This document shows, piece after piece, positions 13,620-53,848 of a DNA stretch of 64,000 nt. The first letter of the stretch is position 1. Each line of letters starts with the position of its first letter. Origin of the DNA: Octopus sinensis (Eukaryota); assembly GCF_006345805.1 (NCBI RefSeq), contig NC_043018.1, forward strand, positions 11,780,001-11,844,000. Reading direction: 5' to 3'. Position numbers and translations under genes: made by a program. A model generated the notes under the pieces. The model was given only the letters and a program-made list of their open reading frames with translations, ran no database searches and had not been told where the DNA came from.

Positions 13620-13659
13620 TGTGTGTGTGTGTGTGTGTGTGTGTTGTGTGTATATATAT

Positions 13660-13691
<32 letters not shown>

Positions 13692-13739
13692 ACATATATA
13701 TATATATACATATATATATATACCTATATATATATATAC

Positions 13740-13770
<31 letters not shown>

Positions 13771-15607
13771 CATATATATATCTATAACATATATATATAT
13801 ATATATAATATAATATATATATACATATATATATATATATACATATATATATATTATACATATATATATATATATATACATAATAGTCATATATACATAT
13901 ATATATACATATATACTATATACTATATATACATATATATATACATATATACATATATATATATACACATATTACACATATATATACATATATACACATT
14001 ATACACATATATATACATATACACATATATACACATATATATACATATATATACATATATACATATATTATACATAATATATATATATATCTATAAATAT
14101 AATATACATATATATACATATATATACATATATATATATACATATATATACATATATATACATACATTATATACATAATATATATACATATATATACATA
14201 TATATATACATATATATACATATATACACATATATATATATACATATATATATTATACATATATATATATACATATTACACATATACATATATACACATA
14301 TATACATATATATACATATATACACTATATATACATATATATACACATATATATACATATATATACACATATATATATATATACACATATGTATATATAT
14401 ACACATATATATATATACATATATATATATATACACATATATATAACACATATATAATATACATATATATATATACACATATATACACATATATATATAT
14501 ATACACATTATACACATTATATTATATATACACATATATATATAATATATATATATACCATATATCTATATAATATAACATATATATATTATATATATAT
14601 ACCATATATACATATATATATATACACATAATATACACATATATATATATATATACACATAATACACATATATATATATATTACACATATATACACATAT
14701 ATACACATATATACACATATATATATATATATATACCATATATATAATACATATATATACATATATATATATATACCATATATATATATACATATATATA
14801 CATATATATATATATATACACATATATAATATATATACACCTATATATATATATATACACATATATATATATATATACACATATATATATATATACACAT
14901 ATATATATATAATATACACATATAGATATATATACACATATATATATATATATACATTATATACATATATATACTATAATACATATATATATCATATATT
15001 ATACATATATATACATATATATATACATATTATATATACTATATATATATATATATCATATATATATACATATACATAATATATACATATACATATATAT
15101 ATACATATATATATACATATATATATATATACATATACATATATAGTACATATACATATATAATAGCATATATATATACATATATATATACATATATATT
15201 ACACATATTAGACACCTAATATATACACATATATATATAACAACTATATATATACTATATACACATATATATATATAATAATATATATATATACATTATA
15301 CTATACATAATATCTATACATATATATATATATAACACATATATACGTATACATATATATATACACATATATATATATATACACATATATATATACACAT
15401 ATATATATATATAATACATATATATATATTACACATATATATACACATATATATATAACAATATATATATATACATATATATATATACACACATATATAT
15501 ATACATATATATATATATATACATATATATAATAATATACATAGACATATATACATATATATAACATACATAATATATATATATATATTATATATATATA
15601 TATATAT

Positions 15608-15646
<39 letters not shown>

Positions 15647-15668
15647 ATTACACATATATATATACACA

Positions 15669-15703
<35 letters not shown>

Positions 15704-16071
15704 CTATATAATATCCATATAATTTATATATATATATATACATATATATATATACTATATATATATACATATATATATACATATATATAATACATATATA
15801 TACATATTATATATATATATACATATATAATCCTATATATATATACATATATATAGATACATTATTACATATACATAATATATCTACATATATATACATA
15901 TATATATATATACATATATATATACACATATATATTATACATATAATATACACATATATATATACACATATATATATACTATATATATATACATATATAT
16001 ATACATATATAAAGACATATATATATATATATCATATATATACTATATATTATATACATATATATATATAC

Positions 16072-16102
<31 letters not shown>

Positions 16103-16122
16103 CATATATATATACACATATA
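13620..16122. repeat. (GT)n followed by ~2.5 kb degenerate (TA)n/(TATACA)n microsatellite
   Basis: Directly visible. Confidence 0.98.
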
Positions 16123-19100
16123 TCATCATCATCATCATCGTCGTTTAACGTCCGTTCTCCATGCTAGCATGGGTTGGACGGTTCGACCGGGGTTCTGGGA
16201 AGCCAGAAGGCTGCACCAGGCTCCAGTCTAATTTGCAATGTTCTACAGCTGGATGCCCTCCTAACGCCAACCACTCCGTGAGTGTAGTGGTTGCTTTTTA
16301 CGTGCCACCTGCACAGGTGCCAGGCGGGGCTGGCAACGGCCACGGTCAGATTGGTGTATTTTATGTGCACACGGCACGGAAGCCAGTCGAGGCGGTGCTG
16401 GCATCGGCCACGAGTCGGATAGTGCTTTTTACGTACCACCAGACCAGGGATCCTGGCTGGTTCAATTCGATTTCGATTTCGCTTGCCCCAACATGTCTTC
16501 ACAAGCAAAGGGGGTTGGCAAGGGTGCCTGTCGTACGGTCGCATTGGAGTATTTTACGTGCCACGGCCACGAGTCGGATAGTGCTTTTTACGTACCACCA
16601 GACCAGGATCCTGGCTGGTTCAATTCGATTTCGATTCGCTTGCCCCAACATGTCTTCACAGCAAAGGGGGTTGGCATGGGTGCCTGTCGTACGGTCGCAT
16701 TGGAGTATTTTACGTGCCATGGCCCCGAGTCGGATAGTGCTTTTTACGTACCACCAGGCCAGGGATCCTGGCTGGTTCAATTCGGTTTCGATTTCGATTT
16801 CGCTTGCCCCAACATGTCTTCGCAAGCATGGGGGGTTGGATGGGTGTCTGTCGTCGGATGAGGTTCTATATCGACTTCGCTTGCCTCAACCGGTCTTTGT
16901 GTCCAAGGGAGGAAAGGCATTCATAAGTGGGCTGGGCTCACTTGTCCTGCCTGCCTGGTCTTCTCACGTACAGAATATTTCCAAAGGTCTCGGTCTCTGG
17001 TCATTTCCTCAGTGAGGCCTAAAGTTCGAAGGTCGTGCTTCACCACCTCGTCCCAGGTTTTCCTGGGTCTACCTCTTCCACGGGTTCCCTCACTGCTAGG
17101 GATTGGCACTTTCTCACACACCTATCTTCATCCATTCTCGCCACATGACCATACCAGCGCAATCGTCTCTCTTGCACACCACAACTGATGCTTCTTAGGT
17201 ACAACATTTCTCTCAAGTGCTAACGCTCTGTCGAGTATGTACACTGACATTACACATCCATCGGAGCATACTGGCTTCATTCCTCACGAGCTTACGCATG
17301 TCCTCAGCAGTCACAGCCCATGTTTCGCTGCCATGTAGCATGGCTGTTCGTACACACGCATCATACAGTCTGCCTTTTACTCTGAGCGAGAGGCCTTTAG
17401 TCACCAGCAGAGGTAAGAGCTCCCTAAACTTTGCCCAGGCTATTCTTATTCTAGCAGTTACACTTTCAGCGCACCCACCCCCACTACTGACTTGGTCACC
17501 TAGATAACGGAAGCTATCAACTACTTCTAGTTTTTCCCCCTGGAAAGTGACGGAAGTTGTTTTCTGCAGATTTTCGGAGGTTAATGCTCCCGAGCATCTG
17601 CCACATACAAAAACTATCTTCCCAGTTAGCCTACCTTTGACATTGCTGCACCTCTTATGTGTCCATAGCTTACACTGGGTACATCTTATAGAGTTTCTAC
17701 CTACACCTTTTCTACAGATCGAGCAGGGCCATCTTCCTGAAGATATTTGTGGATTGTCTACCTTTCTACTTATTAGTACTTTGGTTTTAGCTAGGTTGAC
17801 TCTAAGGCCCCTTGATTCTAAACCCTCCTTCCACACCTGGAACTTCTCCTCCAGTTCTGATAGTGACTCAGCAATAAGAGCAAGGTCGTCAGCGTAGAGG
17901 AGCTCCCAGGACAGCCTGTCTTGAATTCCTCCGTAATTGCCTGGAGTACTATGATAAATAGGAGGGGGCTGAGTACTGAACCCTGGTGGACCCCAACCTC
18001 TACTTTGAATTCTTCTGTGTACATGTTGCCAACCCTAACCTTACTTACGGCATCTCTGTACATGGCTTGCACAGTCCTCACCAGCCATTCATCTATCCCT
18101 AGTTTCCTCATTGACCACCAGATAAGGGATCGGGGGACCCTATCAAAAGCTTTCTCCATGTCAACGAAAGCCAGGTACAGGGCTTATCTTTGGCTAGGTA
18201 TTTCTCCTGCAGCTGCCTTACCAGGAATATAGCATCAGTGGTACTTTTCCCTGGCACGAACCCAAACTGCATCTCATCTAAACTAACTCTCTCTCTAATT
18301 AGTTGGGCTATGACCCTCTCCGTAACCTTCATTACTTGATCCACCAGCTTGATACCTCTGTAATTATTTGTATCTAGGGCATCACCTTTACTTTGTAGCA
18401 GTTGACTAGTATGCTGCTGCACCAGTCATTGGGTATGACTCCTTCGTGTATCACCTGTTGACTATACGGGTGACTAGGTTATAGCCGACACTGCCAGATA
18501 TTTTGAGCATCTCTGCAGTAATCCTGATGGCCTGGGGCTTTCCCTGTCTTCATGCTTCTAATTGCCTAGCTACCACGGAACTATCAACTCGGATAGCTGG
18601 TCCCTCTGTAGGGTCAACATTCGGCAGACTCTCTTTATCCCATTCATTTTCCTCATTCAGTAACCTTTCATAGTGGCGTCTCCAAGCTTCTCTCTTTGCA
18701 TCCTCATTTAGCGCAAGTGAACCATCCTCCATGCGAACACATTTCTCTCCTACCACATCACGATTCTCTCTCACACACTGTCTTGCAACACGAAATACCT
18801 CAAGTCTTTCATCCTCACGGCGCAGGACATTGGCAAATTTTCTCTTATCTGCTTCCCCTCTGGCTAGATAGACCTGTCTCCTAGCTTCCCTTCTGGCAGT
18901 CTGATACCCTTCCCTGCTACCACCGTTTCTTCCAGGCCTTCCAAGCCTGTTTTTTTTTTGTCTAATAGCCCTGTCAACAATATTGTTCCACCACCACGTT
19001 ATTTTGGGTCTTAAGGGGACTTTGCACCAGCCACAGATCTGGTCAGCGGCTTTCAGCAGGTTGTCCCTCAGAAACGTCCAGTTGTCTTCTACCCCATGTG

Positions 19101-20004: not shown

Positions 20005-20153
20005 TATATACATATATATACATATATATATATACATATATATACAATATATATATTATACATATATATACATATATATATATATATCATATATATCATA
20101 TATATATAATACATATACCATATATATACTATACTATATATATATACATATAC

Positions 20154-20184
<31 letters not shown>

Positions 20185-20423
20185 CATATATATACATATA
20201 CAATATAATATACATATATATATACTATACATATATATATATACATATATATATATACATATACATATATATAATACAATATATATACATATATTATACA
20301 TATATATATACATATATATACATATATACATATACAATATACATATACATATATATATATACATATATATATACCATATCAGATATATATATACATATAT
20401 ATATACATATACAATACATATAC

Positions 20424-20454
<31 letters not shown>

Positions 20455-20957
20455 CACATATATATAATATATATACACATATATATTATATATATACACT
20501 TATATATATACACATATATTATATACACATATATATATACCATAATATATATACACATAGATTATCTATATCCATATATATATATATACATATATATAAT
20601 ATATACATATATATACATATATATATACATATATACATATACATATATACATATAATACATATACATATATATACATATACATATTACATATATATATAC
20701 AATATATTACACACATCTATATACATATATATATATACACATTATATATTCTACATATATATATATACACATAGAGATATACATATATCGATATACATAT
20801 ATATATATACATATATATATACATATATATATATATACATAACTATACATATATTACATATACATACATTATTACATATACATATATATACATATACATA
20901 TATATATATACATATATATATTATACATATATATATATATACATATATATATATAAC

Positions 20958-21004
<47 letters not shown>

Positions 21005-21453
21005 CATATATATTATATACATATATATATATATACATATTATATATACATATATATATATATACATATATATATACATATATATATACATATATATATA
21101 CATATATTATACATATATACATATATATATACATATAACATATATATATACATATATATATACATATATATATATACATATATATATATATACATATATA
21201 CATATATATATACATATATATATATACATATATATATATACATATATCTATATACATATATATATATACATATATATATAATATACATATAATATATATA
21301 TACATATATAATATATACATATATATATATATACATATATAATATACCATATATATATATATACACATATATATATATATATACATATATATACATATAC
21401 TATACATATATATACATATATATAATACATATATATATACATATATATCATTA

Positions 21454-21485
<32 letters not shown>

Positions 21486-22459
21486 CATATATATATATAT
21501 ACATTACATATATATACATATACATATATATATACATATATATATACATATATATATATACATATACATATATATACATATACATATAATATACATATAT
21601 ATATACAATATATATACATATATATATATACACATATATATATACACCTATATATATACACATATATATATACACATATATATATATATAACACATATAT
21701 ATATTATACATATATATATACATATATAATATATATATCACATATATATATATATAATATATACATTATATAATATATATACACATATATATATATACAC
21801 ACATATTATATACATATATATATTATTACATATATTATACACTATATATACACATATATATATACATATATATATATATACACATATATACACACATATA
21901 TATATACATATATATATATATACATATATATATATACACACATATATATATAATATATATAATATATATACATATATATAATACACATATATATATACAC
22001 ATATATATATATATATATATACATATATATTATATATATATATATATTACATATATATATATAATATATATATATATACATATATATATACATATATATA
22101 CATATATATATATACTTAATATAATACATATATATATATCCTATATATATATACATATATATATATACATATATATATATACATATATTATATACATATA
22201 TTATCTATACATAATATATAATACATATATATACATATATATATATATACATTATATATATACACATATATATATACATATATATATACACATATATATA
22301 TACACATATTATATATATATATATAATACATATATATATAATATATAATATACATATATATATATATATACATATATATACATATATATATATATACATA
22401 TATATATATACATATATATATATATACATATTAATATATTACATATTATATACACTATA
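20005..22459. repeat. ~2.45 kb degenerate (TA)n/(TATACA)n microsatellite between the two LINE copies
   Basis: Directly visible. Confidence 0.98.
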
Positions 22460-25400
22460 TCATCATCATCATCATCGTCGTTTAACGTCCGTTCTCCATG
22501 CTAGCATGGGTTGGACGGTTCGACCGGGGTTCTGGGAAGCCAGAAGGCTGCACCAGGCTCCAGTCTAATTTGGCAATGTTTCTACAGCTGGATGCCCTTC
22601 CTAACGCCAACCACTCCGTGAGTGTAGTGGGTGCTTTTTACGTGCCACCTGCACAGGTGCCAGGCGGGGCTGGCAACGGCCACGGTCAGATTGGTGTATT
22701 TTATGTGCCACCGGCACGGAGCCAGCCGAGGAGGCGGTGCTGGCATCGGCCACGAGTCGGATAGTGCTTTTTACGTACCACCAGACCAGGGATCCTGGCT
22801 GGTTCAATTCGATTTCGATTTCGCTTGCCCCAACATGTCTTCACAAGCAAAGGGGGTTGGCAAGGTGCCTGTCGTACGGTCGCATTGGAGTATTTTACGT
22901 GCCACGGCCACGAGTCGGATAGTGCTTTTTACGTACCACCAGACCAGGGATCCTGGCTGGTTCAATTCGATTTCGATTTCGCTTGCCCCAACATGTCTTC
23001 ACAAGCAAGGGGGTTGGCATGGGTGCCTGTCGTACGGTCGCATTGGAGTATTTTACGTGCCACGGCCCCGAGTCGGATAGTGCTTTTTACGTACCACCAG
23101 GCCAGGGATCCTGGCTGGTTCAATTCGGTTTCGATTTCGATTTCGCTTGCCCCAACATGTCTTCGCAAGCATGGGGGGTTGGGATGGGTGTCTGTCGTCG
23201 GATGAGGTTCTATATCGACTTCGCTTGCCTCAACCGGTCTTTGTGTCCAAGGGAGGAAAGGCATTCATAAGTGGGCTGGGCTCACTTGTCCTGCCTGGTC
23301 TTCTCACGTACAGAATATTTCCAAAGGTCTCGGTCTCTGGTCATTTCCTCAGTGAGGCCTAAAGTTCGAAGGTCGTGCTTCACCACCTCGTCCCAGGTTT
23401 TCCTGGGTCTACCTCTTCCGGGTTCCCTCAACTGCTAGGGATTGGCACTTTCTCACACACCTATCTTCATCCATTCTCGCCACATGACCATACCAGCGCA
23501 ATCGTCTCTCTTGCACACCACAACTGATGCTTCTTAGGTACAACATTTCTCTCAAGGTGCTAACGCTCTGTCGAGTATGTACACTGACATTACACATCCA
23601 TCGGAGCATACTGGCTTCATTCCTCACGAGCTTACGCATGTCCTCAGCAGTCACAGCCCATGTTTCGCTGCCATGTAGCATGGCTGTTCGTACACACGCA
23701 TCATACAGTCTGCCTTTTACTCTGAGCGAGAGGCCTTTAGTCACCAGCAGAGGTAAGAGCTCCCTAAACTTTGCCCAGGCTATTCTTATTCTAGCAGTTA
23801 CACTTTCATCAGCGCACCCACCCCCACTACTGACTTGGTCACCTAGATAACGGAAGCTATCAACTACTTCTAGTTTTTCCCCCTGGAAAGTGACGGAAGT
23901 TGTTTTCTGCAGATTTTCGGAGGTTAATGCTCCCGAGCATCTGCCACATACAAAAACTATCTTCCCAGTTAGCCTACCTTTGACATTGCTGCACCTCTTA
24001 TGTGTCCATAGCTTACACTGGGTACATCTTATAGAGTTTCTACCTACACCTTTTCTACAGATCGAGCAGGGCCATCTTCCTGAAGATATTTGTGGATTGT
24101 CTACCTTTCTACTTATTAGTACTTTGGTTTTAGCTAGGTTGACTCTAAGGCCCCTTGATTCTAAACCCTCCTTCCACACCTGGAACTTCTCCTCCAGTTC
24201 TGATAGTGACTCAGCAATAAGAGCAAGGTCGTCAGCGTAGAGGAGCTCCCAGGGACAGCCTGTCTTGAATTCCTCCGTAATTGCCTGGAGTACTATGATA
24301 AATAGAGGGGGCTGAGTACTGAACCCTGGTGGACCCCAACCTCTACTTTGAATTCTTCTGTGTACATGTTGCCAACCCTAACCTTACTTACGGCATCTCT
24401 GTACATGGCTTGCACAGTCCTCACCAGCCATTCATCTATCCCTAGTTTCCTCCTCATTGACCACCAGATAAGGGATCGGGGGACCCTATCAAAAGCTTTC
24501 TCCATGTCAACGAAAGCCAGGTACAGGGGCTTATCTTTGGCTAGGTATTTCTCCTGCAGCTGCCTTACCAGGAATATAGCATCAGTGGTACTTTTCCCTG
24601 GCACGAACCCAAACTGCATCTCATCTAAACTAACTCTCTCTCTAATTAGTTGGGCTATGACCCTCTCCGTAACCTTCATTACTTGATCCAACAGCTTGAT
24701 ACCTCTGTAATTATTTGTATCTAGGGCATCCTTTACCTTTGTAGCAGTTGACTAGTATGCTGCTGCACCAGTCATTGGGTATGACTCCTTCGTGTATCAC
24801 CTGGTTGACTATACGGGTGACTAGGTATAGCCGACACTGCCAGATATTTTGAGCATCTCTGCAGTAATTCCTGATGGGCCTGGGGCTTTCCCTGTCTCAT
24901 GCTTCTAATTGCCTTAGCTACCACGGAACTATCAACTCGGATAGCTGGTCCCTCTGTAGGGTCAACATTCGGCAGACTCTCTTTATCCCATTCATTTTCC
25001 TCATTCAGTAACCTTTCATAGTGGCGTCTCCAAGCTTCTCTCTTTGCATCCTCATTTAGCGCAAGTGAACCATCCTCCATGCGAACACATTTCTCTCCTA
25101 CCACATCACGATTCTCTCTCACACACTGTCTTGCAACACGAAATACCTCAAGTCTTTCATCCTCACGGCGCAGGACATTGGCAAATTTTCTCTTATCTGC
25201 TTCCCCTCTGGCTAGATAGACCTGTCTCCTAGCTTCCCTTCTGGCAGTCTGATACCCTTCCTGCTACCAACGTTCTTCCAGGCCTTCCAAGCCTGTTTCT
25301 TTTGTCTAATAGCCCTGTCAACAATATTGTTCCACCACCACGTTATTTTGGGTCTTAAGGGGACTTTGCACCAGCCACAGATCTGGTCAGCGGCTTTCAG

Positions 25401-43521: not shown

Positions 43522-43646
43522 CTGTGTGATTGTTTCGTTTGGAAGATTGGATTTCGCGAAAATACTGAGGAAAAGCTCTCTGTCGACCCGCTCTTGACTT
43601 GGAGCTATGATATCGTAAATTTCTCTATACAAAGGGGGAACAGAAC
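43522..43646 (-). CDS. SNX8: Sorting nexin-8 exon 2 (GSVPPLYREIYDIIAPSQERVDRELFLSIFAKSNLPNETITQ), first half of an EH-like domain
   Basis: CAG acceptor, GTAACC donor, 125 nt, restores phase 0. Confidence 0.88.
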
Positions 43647-43918
43647 CTGCTGTAGGTGGCAAAAAGAAAACAAAAAGATCAGTTTGTTGTCATTCAATAA
43701 TAAAACAGGTATTTGTACATCAGGTAGACACAGACACTCACGATTTCATTCTGTATGGGTGTGTGTGCACATTCAATGGGGATTTGTAAGCAACAAGTCG
43801 TCTAGTTTATGAATGACAAATGAAAGAAAGATGTGTTTATGTTCACAGTAAAATCATTTCTGGTGATCTCAGAAGAAAACAAGGGAAATCTTCATTCGGC
43901 CGAAGCCCGACAACTTAC

Positions 43919-44100: not shown

Positions 44101-44420
44101 CCGCTTCAGTGCTGAACAGCTTTGTCTATACCTTATATTATATACACATGTATGTATGTATGTATATCTATATATATACATATATATATGTATGTATATA
44201 TGTATGTATTTTCCTGTGTTCGAATAAGAAAGCGTCACTGAAAGTTGTAACCATGGAATAGAGATTATCAAAACATTTGAAACGAGGGCAGACTTGTTTA
44301 CCTGTCCTTCCTAAGAGAAAGTATTACATATTCATTTATCATTATTTTAAGTCACAACCGATAAAATATTTCTTGATTTTATTTGTTCCAGGATTTATTA
44401 TTCTGTGATTTCGTTTTAAG

Positions 44421-44541
44421 TTGTTATCTATATTGAGAAGAAGAAGAAAGAAATCCTCCTCTCAGGAACCATGCATTGACGTATTGACCTCAACTATCGC
44501 TGCTTTCGATCTGCAACGCACCTGTTCGTTTTCAATCAAAG
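44421..44541 (+). other. IQCE: Putative non-coding 5' UTR exon of IQCE
   Basis: TTTTAAG acceptor at 44420 (alternative CCAG at 44391) and AAAG|GTAAC donor; no frame continuing into the IQCE ORF was evident. Confidence 0.3.
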
Positions 44542-49890: not shown

Positions 49891-50360
49891 TCTCTGCCTC
49901 CCCCCCTCTTTGTTTCTCTGTCATTCATTCTTCCCCCTCAGTCTGTTCCACTCATATAGTCTCTCTCTCACTCTCCTCTTATACCTCTCCCTTGTTTCTA
50001 TTTGTCTCTCTTTTTCTCTTTTCTTTCTCTATCTCTCTTTTCATTTTACTTTCCTCTTTTTTTCTCTTTTATTCAGCCAAAATAAAGTCCTTTTCAAGAC
50101 CAGACAGTGCCCCTACAGATAAAACTGCTCCTGATGTATGGCTCACTTCTCTTAAGAACAGCAATGGTAAAAGACTCACATTCTCTTTCTTGTACACTAT
50201 ATTCCCACCCTCCCTACCTGTTTACCTCACCAAACAGGGCAATAATAAGGGATTCCAGATGCCACAGGAGTGCTATACACTCTTTTGTTGTTATTCCTAG
50301 CTATTTATTATCTTTAGCATCATTTATATATATATATGTATGTGTGTGTATGTATATATA

Positions 50361-50407
<47 letters not shown>

Positions 50408-50611
50408 CGGAAATTTTACATGACTGTATCCGAAAATTTCTTCATACAACTTGATCAAATATCCAATATGAACTATATGTAGACATGCATAAATTCTATA
50501 GGTTTAAAACCTTTCATCGGATCTCCATGAATCGAACTTTCTTCAATGCAGTTAATCTTACAACCTCTTTTGTATCTACCCCTTTTGATGTTTGGGAATT
50601 CTCTGATATTT

Positions 50612-50699
50612 TTTCGGCTGACGAGTACGAGCCATCTGTATTCACTGCATTTTTTGTAGCTTATTAAAGATGTCCTCGTACGAAACGATCGTATCGAGA
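50612..50699 (+). ncRNA. Type I hammerhead ribozyme motif (Penelope/retrozyme-like, palindromic stem III)
   Basis: CTGACGA 50618-50624; stem II GTACGAG/CTCGTAC; GAAA 50682-50685; stem III ACGATCGT; GTA cleavage triplet ending 50693; stem I TTTCGG/TCGAGA. Confidence 0.75.
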
Positions 50700-51052
50700 T
50701 TTTAATCCATTCTTGTTGCTTTTTTCCTATATATTTATATATATATATTAATAATATATTATTATTAATATATATATATATATATTAATAATATACTATT
50801 ATTAAAATTAGGAAATCAATATCAGAAAACTCCTCAGAAAGATATACACGTGTGAAAAATAATTGTTGTATTAAAAATATATAAATAAATAAATATAAAT
50901 ATGTATAAAAATATATGTAAATATGTATAAGTATAAATATATAACGTATATGACAGTTTAAAAGTTTAGAAATAAGTATTTAAAGCATCTTACGATCATC
51001 TCACAGAATTGTTGGCCCTATAATGGAATCCTATATTGATAAGCATTTATAG

Positions 51053-52326
51053 ACACACACACACACACACACACACACGAAGCTATTGGATGTGTGAATG
51101 TCAGTTTGCATACCCAAAAGTGTGTGAGCAATGATCGAAACCAGTGGTGCATGTCCGGCCCATCTGAAAGTACCCGTGATGCATCAGGCAATACGTTGAT
51201 CTTGAGAAGGCCTGTTGAGTCAAGTGAAACCAAAATCGTAGCTGTGGCCAGTGGCCCCTGACTGGCTTCCATTCTTGTGGCATGTAAAATGTATCATCCG
51301 AATGTGGTTGATGCCAGGTTCACCTGACCTGCTCCCATGCTGGTGGAACGTAAAAAGCACCATCTGAACGTAGCGGATGTCAGTGACCCTTGAGTGTCTC
51401 CCATGGTGGTGGCACGTTGAAAGCACTATTCAAATGGGATTAATGCCTGGCCCGCTTGACTGGCTCCTGTGCTGGTGGCACATAAAAAGCATACACTACA
51501 GTCTCGGAGTTGTTGGCATTAGGAAGGGCATCCAGCTGTAGAAACAATGCCAGAGCAGATTGGAGCCTGGTGCAGCTGCTGGTTCTCCAGGCCTCAGTCA
51601 AACTCTCCAACCCATGCAAGCATGGTAAATGGATGTTAAATGATGATGATGATATAGATATATATGTATATATATAAATACATATATATGTACACACACA
51701 CACACACACACACGAAGCTATTGGATGTGTGAATGTCAGTTTGCATACCCAAAAGTGTGTGAGCAATGATCGAAACCAGTGGTGCATGTCCGGCCCATCT
51801 GAAAGTACCCGTGATGCATCAGGCAATACGTTGATCTTGAGAAGGCCTGTTGAGTCAAGTGAAACCAAAATCGTAGCTGTGGCCAGTGGCCCCTGACTGG
51901 CTTCCATTCTTGTGGCATGTAAAATGTATCATCCGAATGTGGTTGATGCCAGGTTCACCTGACCTGCTCCCATGCTGGTGGAACGTAAAAAGCACCATCT
52001 GAACGTAGCGGATGTCAGTGACCCTTGAGTGTCTCCCATGGTGGTGGCACGTTGAAAGCACTATTCAAATGGGATTAATGCCTGGCCCGCTTGACTGGCT
52101 CCTGTGCTGGTGGCACATAAAAAGCATACACTACAGTCTCGGAGTTGTTGGCATTAGGAAGGGCATCCAGCTGTAGAAACAATGCCAGAGCAGATTGGAG
52201 CCTGGTGCAGCTGCTGGTTCTCCAGGCCTCAGTCAAACTCTCCAACCCATGCAAGCATGGTAAATGGATGTTAAATGATGATGATGATATAGATATATAT
52301 GTATATATATAAATACATATATATGT

Positions 52327-52350
<24 letters not shown>
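51053..52350 (+). repeat. Apparently exact 635-bp tandem duplication of an RTE 3'-UTR-derived element bounded by (CA)n
   Basis: Three ORF end coordinates recur offset by exactly 635 nt; each unit ends with an RTE-type (GAT)n tail. Confidence 0.93.
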
Positions 52351-52357
<7 letters not shown>

Positions 52358-53848
52358 TACATATTTAAAAAATTTTTAATAGGGTCTGAAAATACTTCAA
52401 AAATACAAAAATTATGCAAGATAATTGAGCTTCATACATAAAAATGAAGCTTTGCTAAATTCTAATGGGGTATATTTTGAAAGGTGTTTGTTTTTAATTG
52501 AACAATTTTTGTTAGACATTTCTTTGATCTCTTTGTACAGAAAATACTGTCTTACTGAAAAAAGTTGATCAGAACTTGGCATATAACAGTACTTCAGCAT
52601 ATCATCGGCAAGTCATGGCTTTTGGGAAAACAAGAAAAATGCCAGAAATCAATTCTCGTATGTTTTACCATTTTAGTTTTCTTTTGTTCATTCTGTTGTT
52701 TGGTTTTCGTCATTCTTTTTTGTTTTTGTTCTTGCAGTGTTGGGGGAGGCGATTGTGGTTGTGGCAGCAGAAGGGGTGAGTGCCTTGGATTGTATGTTTG
52801 GCATAAAACAAAGTCAAAAGCATTCATGAATAGTCATCATTATTCTGTTTTATCCTCGTTATTTTAACCCCTTAATAGGTCAATTATTTGGACATGGTGT
52901 TTCATTTCAGAGCATATTTTTTTTATTTCATTTTTTACACGGTGCCATATTTTACAATCCTGTAAATAATAATAATAATGGTATTTATCCTATAAGCTTT
53001 TCAGTGCAATTATAATCACTTTATTATTTCATTTCCTTATCTATGTAAGCACAGTTTCATCTTCCATGCCGTATGTTTAAGAGAAAAAAAACTTGAGATC
53101 CCTTTGCTCGATCCCTCTTTCCCTCTCTTTCACACTCATTTATTATTGTCACTTATTCATTTATCTAATCCTGTCGCAGTTTGGCTGACCAAAAACTGCT
53201 GGTCATGGCTCTAGTTGAGAATCCAAATTCCCAACTCTATCTCATTCTTATCGTTAACATTTTATCGCACCAGTCGTCTGAGTTTTTGCTGTTTCATGGT
53301 GTGCCTTCCCACCCCCACCAGTGGCTGAGGGGAAATTAGTAAAGTATATAGAGAGGTAGGGGAGAAGATGGAGTGAGGGTTGAGTAGGGGGTCAGAATAG
53401 CAGTTGTTAGTGGGGCAAAGGAATTGGGTTGGTATTGGAGGGGAGTGTTATGGTATGGAGAGGTGTTTCTCTATAATTGAAGAAACAAACCAGTTACTGA
53501 TTAAGGCCGGAGGAATCAGCACAATTGTAGAAAATATTCAAAAAGGCGTTTAAGACAGTTCTCTACACTTGGATGTCTGATGTTGACTGTGCTATGTGGT
53601 ATACATGTCTCTGTGTATGTGTCATATGCATGGTGTGTATGCATGCATGCAAACACACACACACATGATGTGCTTATGTACATAATCCATTTAGAATGAC
53701 TAAATATTAGTGATATAGTGGAAGTGGGATCAGTTTAATTAACCAGATTCTTCCCTTACAAATTCTACCCTTCCCAAATAATAGAAATCTATATTTATCT
53801 TTATTTATTCCCTTAACCCCATCATTTATCTTCTTTCTGTGATTACAG

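What the first reader, a model, noticed from the sequence alone, without database searches (positions are those of the whole stretch)
50612..50699. Canonical hammerhead ribozyme fold in the sense strand of an IQCE intron
Seen: all core elements occur in order. Stem I 5' TTTCGG, core CTGACGA, a perfect 7-bp stem II (GTACGAG/CTCGTAC, extended by CATCT/AGATG with an inner CTGCA/TGTAG hairpin), GAAA, a self-complementary stem III ACGATCGT, a GTA cleavage triplet, and stem I 3' TCGAGA. It lies in a ~320-bp unique island (about 50408-50730) between two TA tracts. Known: type I hammerheads with a palindromic, nearly loopless stem III are typical of Penelope-like elements and retrozymes, and they tend to cleave as dimers. 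Inference: this is a non-autonomous PLE/retrozyme unit. Being sense to IQCE, it would be transcribed in the pre-mRNA, where it could self-cleave or cleave in trans with other copies.
Basis: partly seen in the sequence, partly recalled or inferred. Interest (0 to 1): 0.75.

Follow-up and report, generated by a model that had tools for sequence, protein, structure and literature searches.

The report
Penelope retrotransposon tail carrying long-armed hammerhead
This is the cut-off tail of a young, protein-coding jumping gene (a Penelope-like element with hundreds of near-identical copies) that landed in an octopus IQCE intron; it carries a hammerhead ribozyme motif predicted to cut RNA only when two copies pair, so it likely does little to the host gene.

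Summary
The hammerhead is there as described (50612-50699). It is the only hit in the window (0.01 expected per shuffle) and lies in the sense strand of an IQCE intron (50167-52540); Rfam does not detect it.

The 320-bp island is neither unique nor a retrozyme. It is the 5'-truncated 3' end of a 4.7-kb Hydra-clade Penelope-like element (RT plus GIY-YIG, pLTR-ORF-pLTR) inserted in (TA)n; 335 exact motif copies exist. Sister families give compensatory changes in stems I and II and in the 58-nt long arm.

A single copy is predicted almost never to take the active fold; two family copies form a favourable double hammerhead. This copy has a U next to the cut site where 334 others have C: a private change or an assembly error.

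Copies do not end at the cut site. They end about 37 or 154 nt beyond it, and head-to-head pairs combine one end of each kind (21 of 21).

Known kind (Craig 2021 lists an octopus Hydra hammerhead); a new, longer family. The scan noted similar elements elsewhere in this genome. No cleavage data.

The parts
50077..50166 (+). IQCE coding exon upstream of the insertion (protein residues 12-40)
   Evidence: AG/GT ends; tblastn of P0023 100% over 29 aa
50167..52540 (+). IQCE intron (2,374 nt) that holds the insertion
   Evidence: GT and AG ends; next exon 52541-52656
50325..50407 (.). Left (TA)n tract, part of the insertion target
   Evidence: TRF; Hydra-clade elements insert in (TA)n (PMC8557442 section 11)
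50408..50410 (-). CGG at the left junction; possibly a 3-nt stub of an inverted 'long' end (inferred; too short to prove)
   Evidence: Family match starts at 50410; long ends read (TA)n-CGGTTAAG when inverted, and short inverted stubs occur in L183, L195 and L136
50410..50730 (+). 5'-truncated 3' end (pLTR part) of a Hydra-clade Penelope-like element; 'short' end type, about 37 nt past the cut site
   Evidence: 98-99% identity to family copies; upstream continuation in longer copies leads to the GIY-YIG and RT ORF; end type
50612..50617 (+). Hammerhead stem I, 5' strand
   Evidence: covariation among sister families
50618..50624 (+). Catalytic core CUGACGA
50625..50682 (+). Long stem II arm (58 nt): 7-bp basal helix, middle helix, apical hairpin
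   Evidence: fold; apical hairpin 92.9% paired with 3 of 7 pairs changed on both sides, middle helix 84.3% paired
50683..50693 (+). GAA, palindromic stem III (ACGAUCGU) and GUA triplet; predicted cut after 50693
   Evidence: 8-bp self-duplex -10.0 kcal/mol
50694..50699 (+). Stem I, 3' strand; T50694 gives G-U at pair 2.1-1.1 where the family has G-C
   Evidence: 1 of 335 exact-context copies; all contig depth at this place reads C in four runs
50728..50805 (.). Right TA-rich tract, part of the insertion target
   Evidence: TRF

Best explanation
The motif is the hammerhead of the end repeat (pLTR) of a young, protein-coding Hydra-clade Penelope-like retrotransposon, left here as a 5'-truncated 320-bp copy in an intronic (TA)n tract, and it is predicted to cut only when two copies pair through the palindromic stem III, so this lone intronic copy is likely a near-inert passenger. 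Shown: element anatomy, copy number, clade motifs, covariation, end positions. Inferred: in full-length pLTR-ORF-pLTR transcripts (or between two transcripts) two motifs form a double hammerhead and cut about 210 nt upstream of the start codon, releasing unit-length RNA. Inferred: insertion is by target-primed reverse transcription from uncut RNA at two fixed internal sites, about 37 and 154 nt past the cut site, one for each nicked DNA strand, which gives head-to-head copies with one short and one long end. Untested: any cleavage.
For: Parent element: L055 has a 483-nt direct repeat (99.4%) at both ends of a 1,105-codon frame; unit length 4,723 nt. Hydra motifs RWR, DKT, CxCx5C, CxxC..E and CxH are present, as defined in PMC8557442 section 11. 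22 relatives at E<=0.001, 21 of them 35-42% identical and about 620-760 aa long, best from Argonauta hians. Covariation on 22 motifs (window, one family copy, 20 sister-family copies): 84.8% of cells paired, 12 of 23 pairs changed on both sides, slid controls 33-51%; unguided RNAalifold recovers stem I and the apical hairpin. Stem III varies as a palindrome: by hand count, 93 of the first 100 listed matches have a Watson-Crick outer pair (AATT, ATTT, CTAG, CATG, TATA). Energetics: forced monomer is 4.4-4.7 kcal/mol above the best fold, P 1e-4 to 4e-4; for 92-nt pieces the family double hammerhead (-60.4) equals the best dimer fold and beats two monomers by 6.0. Ends: of 59 junctions, 30 short, 25 long, 4 run into the ORF; of 3 genome matches with a non-C after GUA none is an end. 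Inverted pairs: 21 short+long, 0 like+like, p=4.8e-7. This fits the two RT start sites, both-strand nicking and use of uncut RNA shown for an anole element (PMC11167929) and the lack of monomer cleavage for a schistosome motif (PMC4209133).
Against: No Rfam hit. No cleavage was measured. With 101-nt pieces the best dimer fold was not the double hammerhead, so the energy result depends on the piece chosen. RNAalifold did not recover basal stem II, whose inner pairs shift register between families, and the sister motifs were chosen by a pattern that fixes the core. Only 1 of the 20 sister loci had a PLE protein hit within 2 kb, so their link to coding elements rests on homologous tails. None of the 10 long copies examined has a clean full-length frame. 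3 of 7 matches are inversion junctions within about 3 nt of the cut site, a weak hint that cut RNA is sometimes the template. No reference tree was built, so clade membership rests on motifs and a by-eye comparison.
Confidence: 0.82

Rival explanations
1. The island is a non-autonomous retrozyme monomer that replicates as a small circular RNA.
For: About 320 nt, non-coding, type I hammerhead, high copy number; retrozymes are reported to derive from PLE pLTRs (bioRxiv 10.64898/2026.07.22.740005).
Against: 5' ends are ragged, from about -175 to beyond -2000 nt, and run into the endonuclease and RT frame. Close pairs are head-to-head, not head-to-tail arrays. No fixed unit ends at the cut site.
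Confidence: 0.04
2. The intronic copy cuts IQCE pre-mRNA, alone or in trans with family transcripts, and so tunes IQCE expression.
For: Sense orientation in the intron, 526 nt from the donor; a window-plus-family double hammerhead is still 5.7 kcal/mol below two monomers; an intronic self-cleaving ribozyme in Cpeb3 is reported (PMC10919898, search listing only).
Against: Monomer active fold about 1e-4; G-U at the cut site lowers that pair's probability from 0.98 to 0.48 and puts the double hammerhead above a rival dimer fold; the pair is G-C in 20 of 22 aligned motifs; the copy is young and shows no sign of retention; anole RNA-seq showed no ends at the cut site.
Confidence: 0.07
3. The motif serves mainly as an RNA dimerisation module: the palindrome and swapped stem I strands hold two element RNAs together so that both nicked DNA strands are primed, with cleavage secondary or late.
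For: Strict short+long pairing of inverted arms; copies derive from uncut RNA; double hammerhead is the best dimer fold for family copies; the anole protein is predicted dimeric and its ribozyme mutants still insert in vitro.
Against: One RNA with two start sites explains the pairing equally well. Naiad elements form inverted insertions without canonical hammerheads. 15 of 20 unpaired copies show no second arm.
Confidence: 0.12

Closest known systems
Hydra-clade Penelope-like elements and their hammerheads, including Hydra-1_Obim of Octopus bimaculoides (Craig et al. 2021, PMC8557442; seen: abstract, passages, section 11, supplement part 2 and passages)
   Same: C-terminal GIY-YIG, DKT, CxCx5C, CxxC and CxH motifs, (TA)n target, sense type I hammerhead near the 3' end with a near-loopless stem III, pLTR and inverted 5'-truncated copies, tail at one end only.
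   Different: Unit 4.7 kb against 2.1-2.7 kb for complete listed families; two Asn-rich stretches (roughly 145 and 215 extra residues); 3' UTR about 1.46 kb; 44 nt between the stem II strands against 3-9 nt loops in the listed Hydra motifs; tail about 117 nt against 30-40. The motif and RT differ from Hydra-1_Obim by eye, so it is another family.
Minimal and palindromic-helix-III hammerheads of metazoan PLEs (Cervera and de la Pena 2014, PMC4209133; seen: parts 1-2 of 4)
   Same: Long helix II (7 bp), short helix I, palindromic helix III, mostly scattered single copies from truncated elements, some close pairs on opposite strands; monomer inactive, dimer weak in their tests.
   Different: 8-nt palindrome and a three-helix arm with a covarying apical hairpin; very low variation within this family.
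Poseidon element of Anolis carolinensis (Frangieh et al. 2024, PMC11167929; seen: parts 1-2 of 4)
   Same: Two RT start sites that define the tail, AT-rich targets, copies made from RNA not cut at the hammerhead.
   Different: Other clade; there the start sites lie inside the ORF and the ribozyme overlaps the start codon, here both lie upstream of it. Activity there is shown in vitro; here it is inferred from genomic ends.
Animal non-LTR retrozymes (bioRxiv 10.64898/2026.07.22.740005; seen: part 1 of 5)
   Same: Type I hammerhead, relation to PLE pLTRs.
   Different: No tandem units; belongs to a coding element; ragged 5' ends.

Membership tests
Type I hammerhead ribozyme | Core CUGANGA, GAA and NUH in type I order with helices I-III | tested here: met
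Type I hammerhead ribozyme | Compensatory changes in the helices among homologues | tested here: met
   12 of 23 pairs changed on both sides over 22 motifs; none within the near-identical family
Type I hammerhead ribozyme | Match to an Rfam hammerhead model | tested here: not met
   no hammerhead family at E<=1; the long arm and loopless stem III may explain it (inference)
Type I hammerhead ribozyme | Mg2+-dependent self-cleavage after NUH | not testable with these tools
   folding only
EN+ Penelope-like element | One ORF with RT and C-terminal GIY-YIG endonuclease | tested here: met
   Pfam GIY-YIG E=0.0011, below the curated cut-off, on the 463-aa piece; no Pfam hit on the long frame or three relatives
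EN+ Penelope-like element | pLTR (partial tandem) and inverted 5'-truncated copies | tested here: met
   483-nt direct repeat in L055, 205 nt in L060; inverted pairs
EN+ Penelope-like element | Hammerhead in the pLTR, sense to the ORF | tested here: met
   stem III 208-217 nt before the start region in 6 of 9 matches
Hydra clade | RWK motif and DKT in place of DKG | tested here: met
   DKT exact; RWR in place of RWK, as in 2 of 10 aligned relatives
Hydra clade | CxCx5C linker, CxxC and CxH near the C-terminus, no CCHH | tested here: met
Hydra clade | Insertion in (TA)n | tested here: met
   window and nearly all of 55 terminal junctions
Hydra clade | Generally short (<3 kb) | tested here: not met
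   4,723 nt; described as typical, not as diagnostic
Hydra clade | Groups with Hydra references in an RT tree | not tested
   reference proteins were seen only as text in a supplement and compared by eye
Non-LTR retrozyme | Non-coding tandem units each with a hammerhead | tested here: not met
   single arm here; parent encodes RT and endonuclease; pairs are inverted
Non-LTR retrozyme | Circular RNA joined at the cut site | not testable with these tools
   only contigs were available

The most novel reading that the evidence does not exclude
Octopus Hydra-type elements use a long-armed double hammerhead as a pairing device as well as a cutter: two uncut element RNAs dimerise through the palindrome, and the enzyme starts one cDNA on each nicked strand of a (TA)n target at two fixed sites 117 nt apart, which is why every head-to-head insertion has one short and one long end. 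More than 14,000 long-armed motifs in this genome would then be the record of an undescribed ribozyme variant tied to a two-strand priming mechanism.
Probability: 0.15. Interest if true: 0.7.

Novelty: new variant of a known kind. Interest (0 to 1): 0.33.

Why it matters
For IQCE it likely matters little. Its value is as a clean test system for two open questions about Penelope-like elements: what their hammerheads do, and how the inverted insertions with a tail at one end arise. This family is young (96-99% identity), has a defined parent element, two sharp end sites and a strict short+long pairing rule, and belongs to a genome-wide set of at least 14,174 long-armed and several thousand short-armed motifs that Rfam missed in the one case tested. 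A model of the long-armed motif would improve ribozyme and repeat annotation in cephalopods.

Tried and rejected
Rfam scan: no hammerhead hit, only TA-repeat matches. Retrozyme reading: rejected on ragged 5' ends, coding parent and inverted pairs. Ends at the cut site: none among 3 matches; of 7 matches, 4 are point changes and 3 are inversion junctions, too few to call an enrichment. could not see such ends because its pattern required the downstream letters. Spliced leader: all 9 start-region matches keep an acceptor-like AG before the start codon and none looks spliced. Covariation inside the family: none to count; the 20 older copies fetched gave only 3 loci with the motif, all family type. 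Target-site duplication: not definable in TA tracts. RNA: no RNA holder listed; contigs of two runs guessed to be RNA cover the island with C at 50694, but they can come from any copy and cannot show ends. Presence or absence of this insertion in other individuals stays open: no contig bridges it. Cross-family pairing through the shared palindrome: considered and rejected because stem I sequences differ between families. The first pairing tally had edge and chance miscalls and was replaced. The protein atlas gave no result. Literature searches found no paper on this family or on long-armed octopus hammerheads; Repbase, Dfam and the library of PMC13282606 (passages seen; 31 recently active Penelope-like families listed without clade or ribozyme) were not checked and may hold it. 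One search found nothing usable on a G-U pair at 2.1-1.1, so its effect on rate is not sourced.

Full report
Observation. A descriptor scan found this as the only type I hammerhead on either strand of the window; 100 shuffles gave 0.01 loose and 0 strict hits per window. Rfam returned no hammerhead family at E<=1. The host gene is IQCE: an exon just beyond the window is 100% identical to a protein named IQ domain-containing protein E-like from Octopus sinensis, and 88% to the O. bimaculoides one; the first maps to nine + strand exons in the window. The motif lies in the sense strand of the 2,374-nt intron 50167-52540.

The island is a repeat. A genome search with 50408-50730 gave 923 candidates; the 40 scored are mostly 96-99% identical over the full length. 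The 3' half of the motif has 335 exact matches against 0 for the reversed control. Only the window copy has T at 50694, and all 29 aligned copies have C. In four laid runs all contig depth at that place reads C; contigs drop rare variants, so the T is either private or an assembly error.

The parent element. Upstream of the island, longer copies continue through an AT-rich 3' UTR of about 1.46 kb into a GIY-YIG frame and then an RT frame. L055 shows pLTR-ORF-pLTR with a 483-nt repeat at 99.4% and a unit of 4,723 nt. None of the 10 long copies examined has a clean full frame; L055 has a changed RT motif and a shifted C-terminus. The protein carries RWR, DKT, CxCx5C, CxxC..E and CxH, the marks of the Hydra clade. 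Its relatives are about 700-aa proteins at 35-42% identity, the best from Argonauta hians. Two Asn-rich stretches and the long UTR account for the extra length. Craig et al. list an O. bimaculoides Hydra family of 2,507 nt with a different hammerhead; by eye its RT is related but distinct. No tree was built.

Structure under selection. The family is too young to show covariation. The genome holds many related motifs: 1,955 with the same palindrome and a shorter arm (control 2), 3,086 with other stem III centres (control 141) and 14,174 with arms of 45-72 nt (control 191). In one search, 93 of the first 100 listed have a Watson-Crick outer pair in stem III (hand count; copies, not independent events). 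I aligned the window, one family copy and 20 sister-family motifs picked from the first 100 rows for similar arm length. The named structure is 84.8% paired, with 12 of 23 pairs changed on both sides, against 33-51% for slid controls. The apical hairpin is 92.9% paired and the middle helix 84.3%. RNAalifold recovers stem I and the apical hairpin but not basal stem II. Pair 2.1-1.1 is G-C in 20 of 22; the window is the only G-U. The sister loci share the downstream tail; only 1 of 20 had a protein hit within 2 kb.

How it likely works. As a monomer the core is predicted to mispair; the active fold lies 4.4-4.7 kcal/mol above the best fold, with probability 1e-4 to 4e-4. For 92-nt pieces, two family copies form a double hammerhead at -60.4 kcal/mol, equal to the best dimer fold and 6.0 below two monomers; two window copies reach -54.8, above a rival at -58.0. 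With 101-nt pieces another dimer fold won, so this is support, not proof. It agrees with the inactive monomer and weak dimer reported for a schistosome PLE motif. At pLTR-ORF junctions stem III sits 208-217 nt before the start region in 6 of 9 matches, so a cut would set the 5' end of unit RNA (inference). There is no second palindrome in the part of the gene examined, so the intronic copy would need a partner in trans.

Ends. Of 59 distinct junctions, 30 end 36-43 nt past the cut site, 25 end near +154 and 4 run into the ORF; nearly all terminal ones abut (TA)n. That pattern could not see ends at the cut site, so I searched for them: 3 matches with a non-C after GUA, none an end, and 7 lacking the G, of which 4 are point changes and 3 inversion junctions. 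Copies are therefore made from RNA not cut at the 3' hammerhead, as shown in vitro for the anole element. In 25 inverted loci, 21 pair one short with one long end, 2 pair a short end with a long end over-measured into TA-like flank, 1 runs into the ORF and 1 has three arms and was not counted; none pairs like with like (p=4.8e-7 for 21 of 21). Among 20 further copies without a second match, 4 have an inverted arm at the junction, all of the complementary type, 1 has a short stub by eye, and 15 show none. The simplest reading is that both nicked strands prime, one at each site. The window copy has a short end, and the CGG at its left junction may be a 3-nt stub of a long end; a substitution or small deletion would look the same.

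Known or new. Hammerheads in PLE pLTRs, dimer dependence, tails and two start sites are published, and Hydra elements are known from octopus. Searches found no description of this longer family or of the long-armed motif; repeat databases and preprint supplements were not seen. Earlier notes of this scan describe long-armed Hydra hammerheads and two-ended inverted insertions in other windows of this genome; none matched this sequence. I tested both points on this family and they hold.

Verdict. A real hammerhead motif in an ordinary truncated retrotransposon copy. The interest lies in the family, not in an effect on IQCE. Interest 0.33; new variant of a known kind.

Noticed in passing
window 43522-43649 (-) and 44240-44539 (+): An expressed exon of another gene lies on the minus strand (it resembles sorting nexin 8; name recalled, not tested), head-to-head with a candidate first exon of the + strand gene seen in one contig.
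   Followed up: partly
window 13651-16854 and 20005-23198: Two 2.4-kb (TA)n blocks, each followed by a 156-158 bp tandem repeat and RTE-like LINE frames, repeat at about 6.35 kb spacing: a tandem duplication or an assembly artefact.
   Followed up: no
L055 3301-3354: A branch-point-like CTTAAC, pyrimidine run and CAG lie 5-6 nt before the element's start codon in all 9 start-region matches; possibly the acceptor of a 5' UTR intron, donor not found, no spliced copy seen.
   Followed up: partly
L056 7243-7661: The element's 3' UTR holds an old imperfect duplication of about 243 nt (76% identity) just upstream of the hammerhead; it explains the 72-80% secondary hits.
   Followed up: no
L055 frame, about residues 480-640 and 710-930: Two Asn-rich low-complexity stretches absent from 700-aa relatives; the Argonauta relative has a shorter insert at the first site.
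   Followed up: partly
genome-wide: Roughly 19,000 pattern matches to hammerhead-like motifs from many families with several palindromic stem III centres; ranges and patterns overlap little but were not de-duplicated.
   Followed up: partly
L004/L005 and L006/L024: Whole insertions with identical flanks occur twice (1.6 kb and 27 kb apart): later duplications or assembly duplicates.
   Followed up: no
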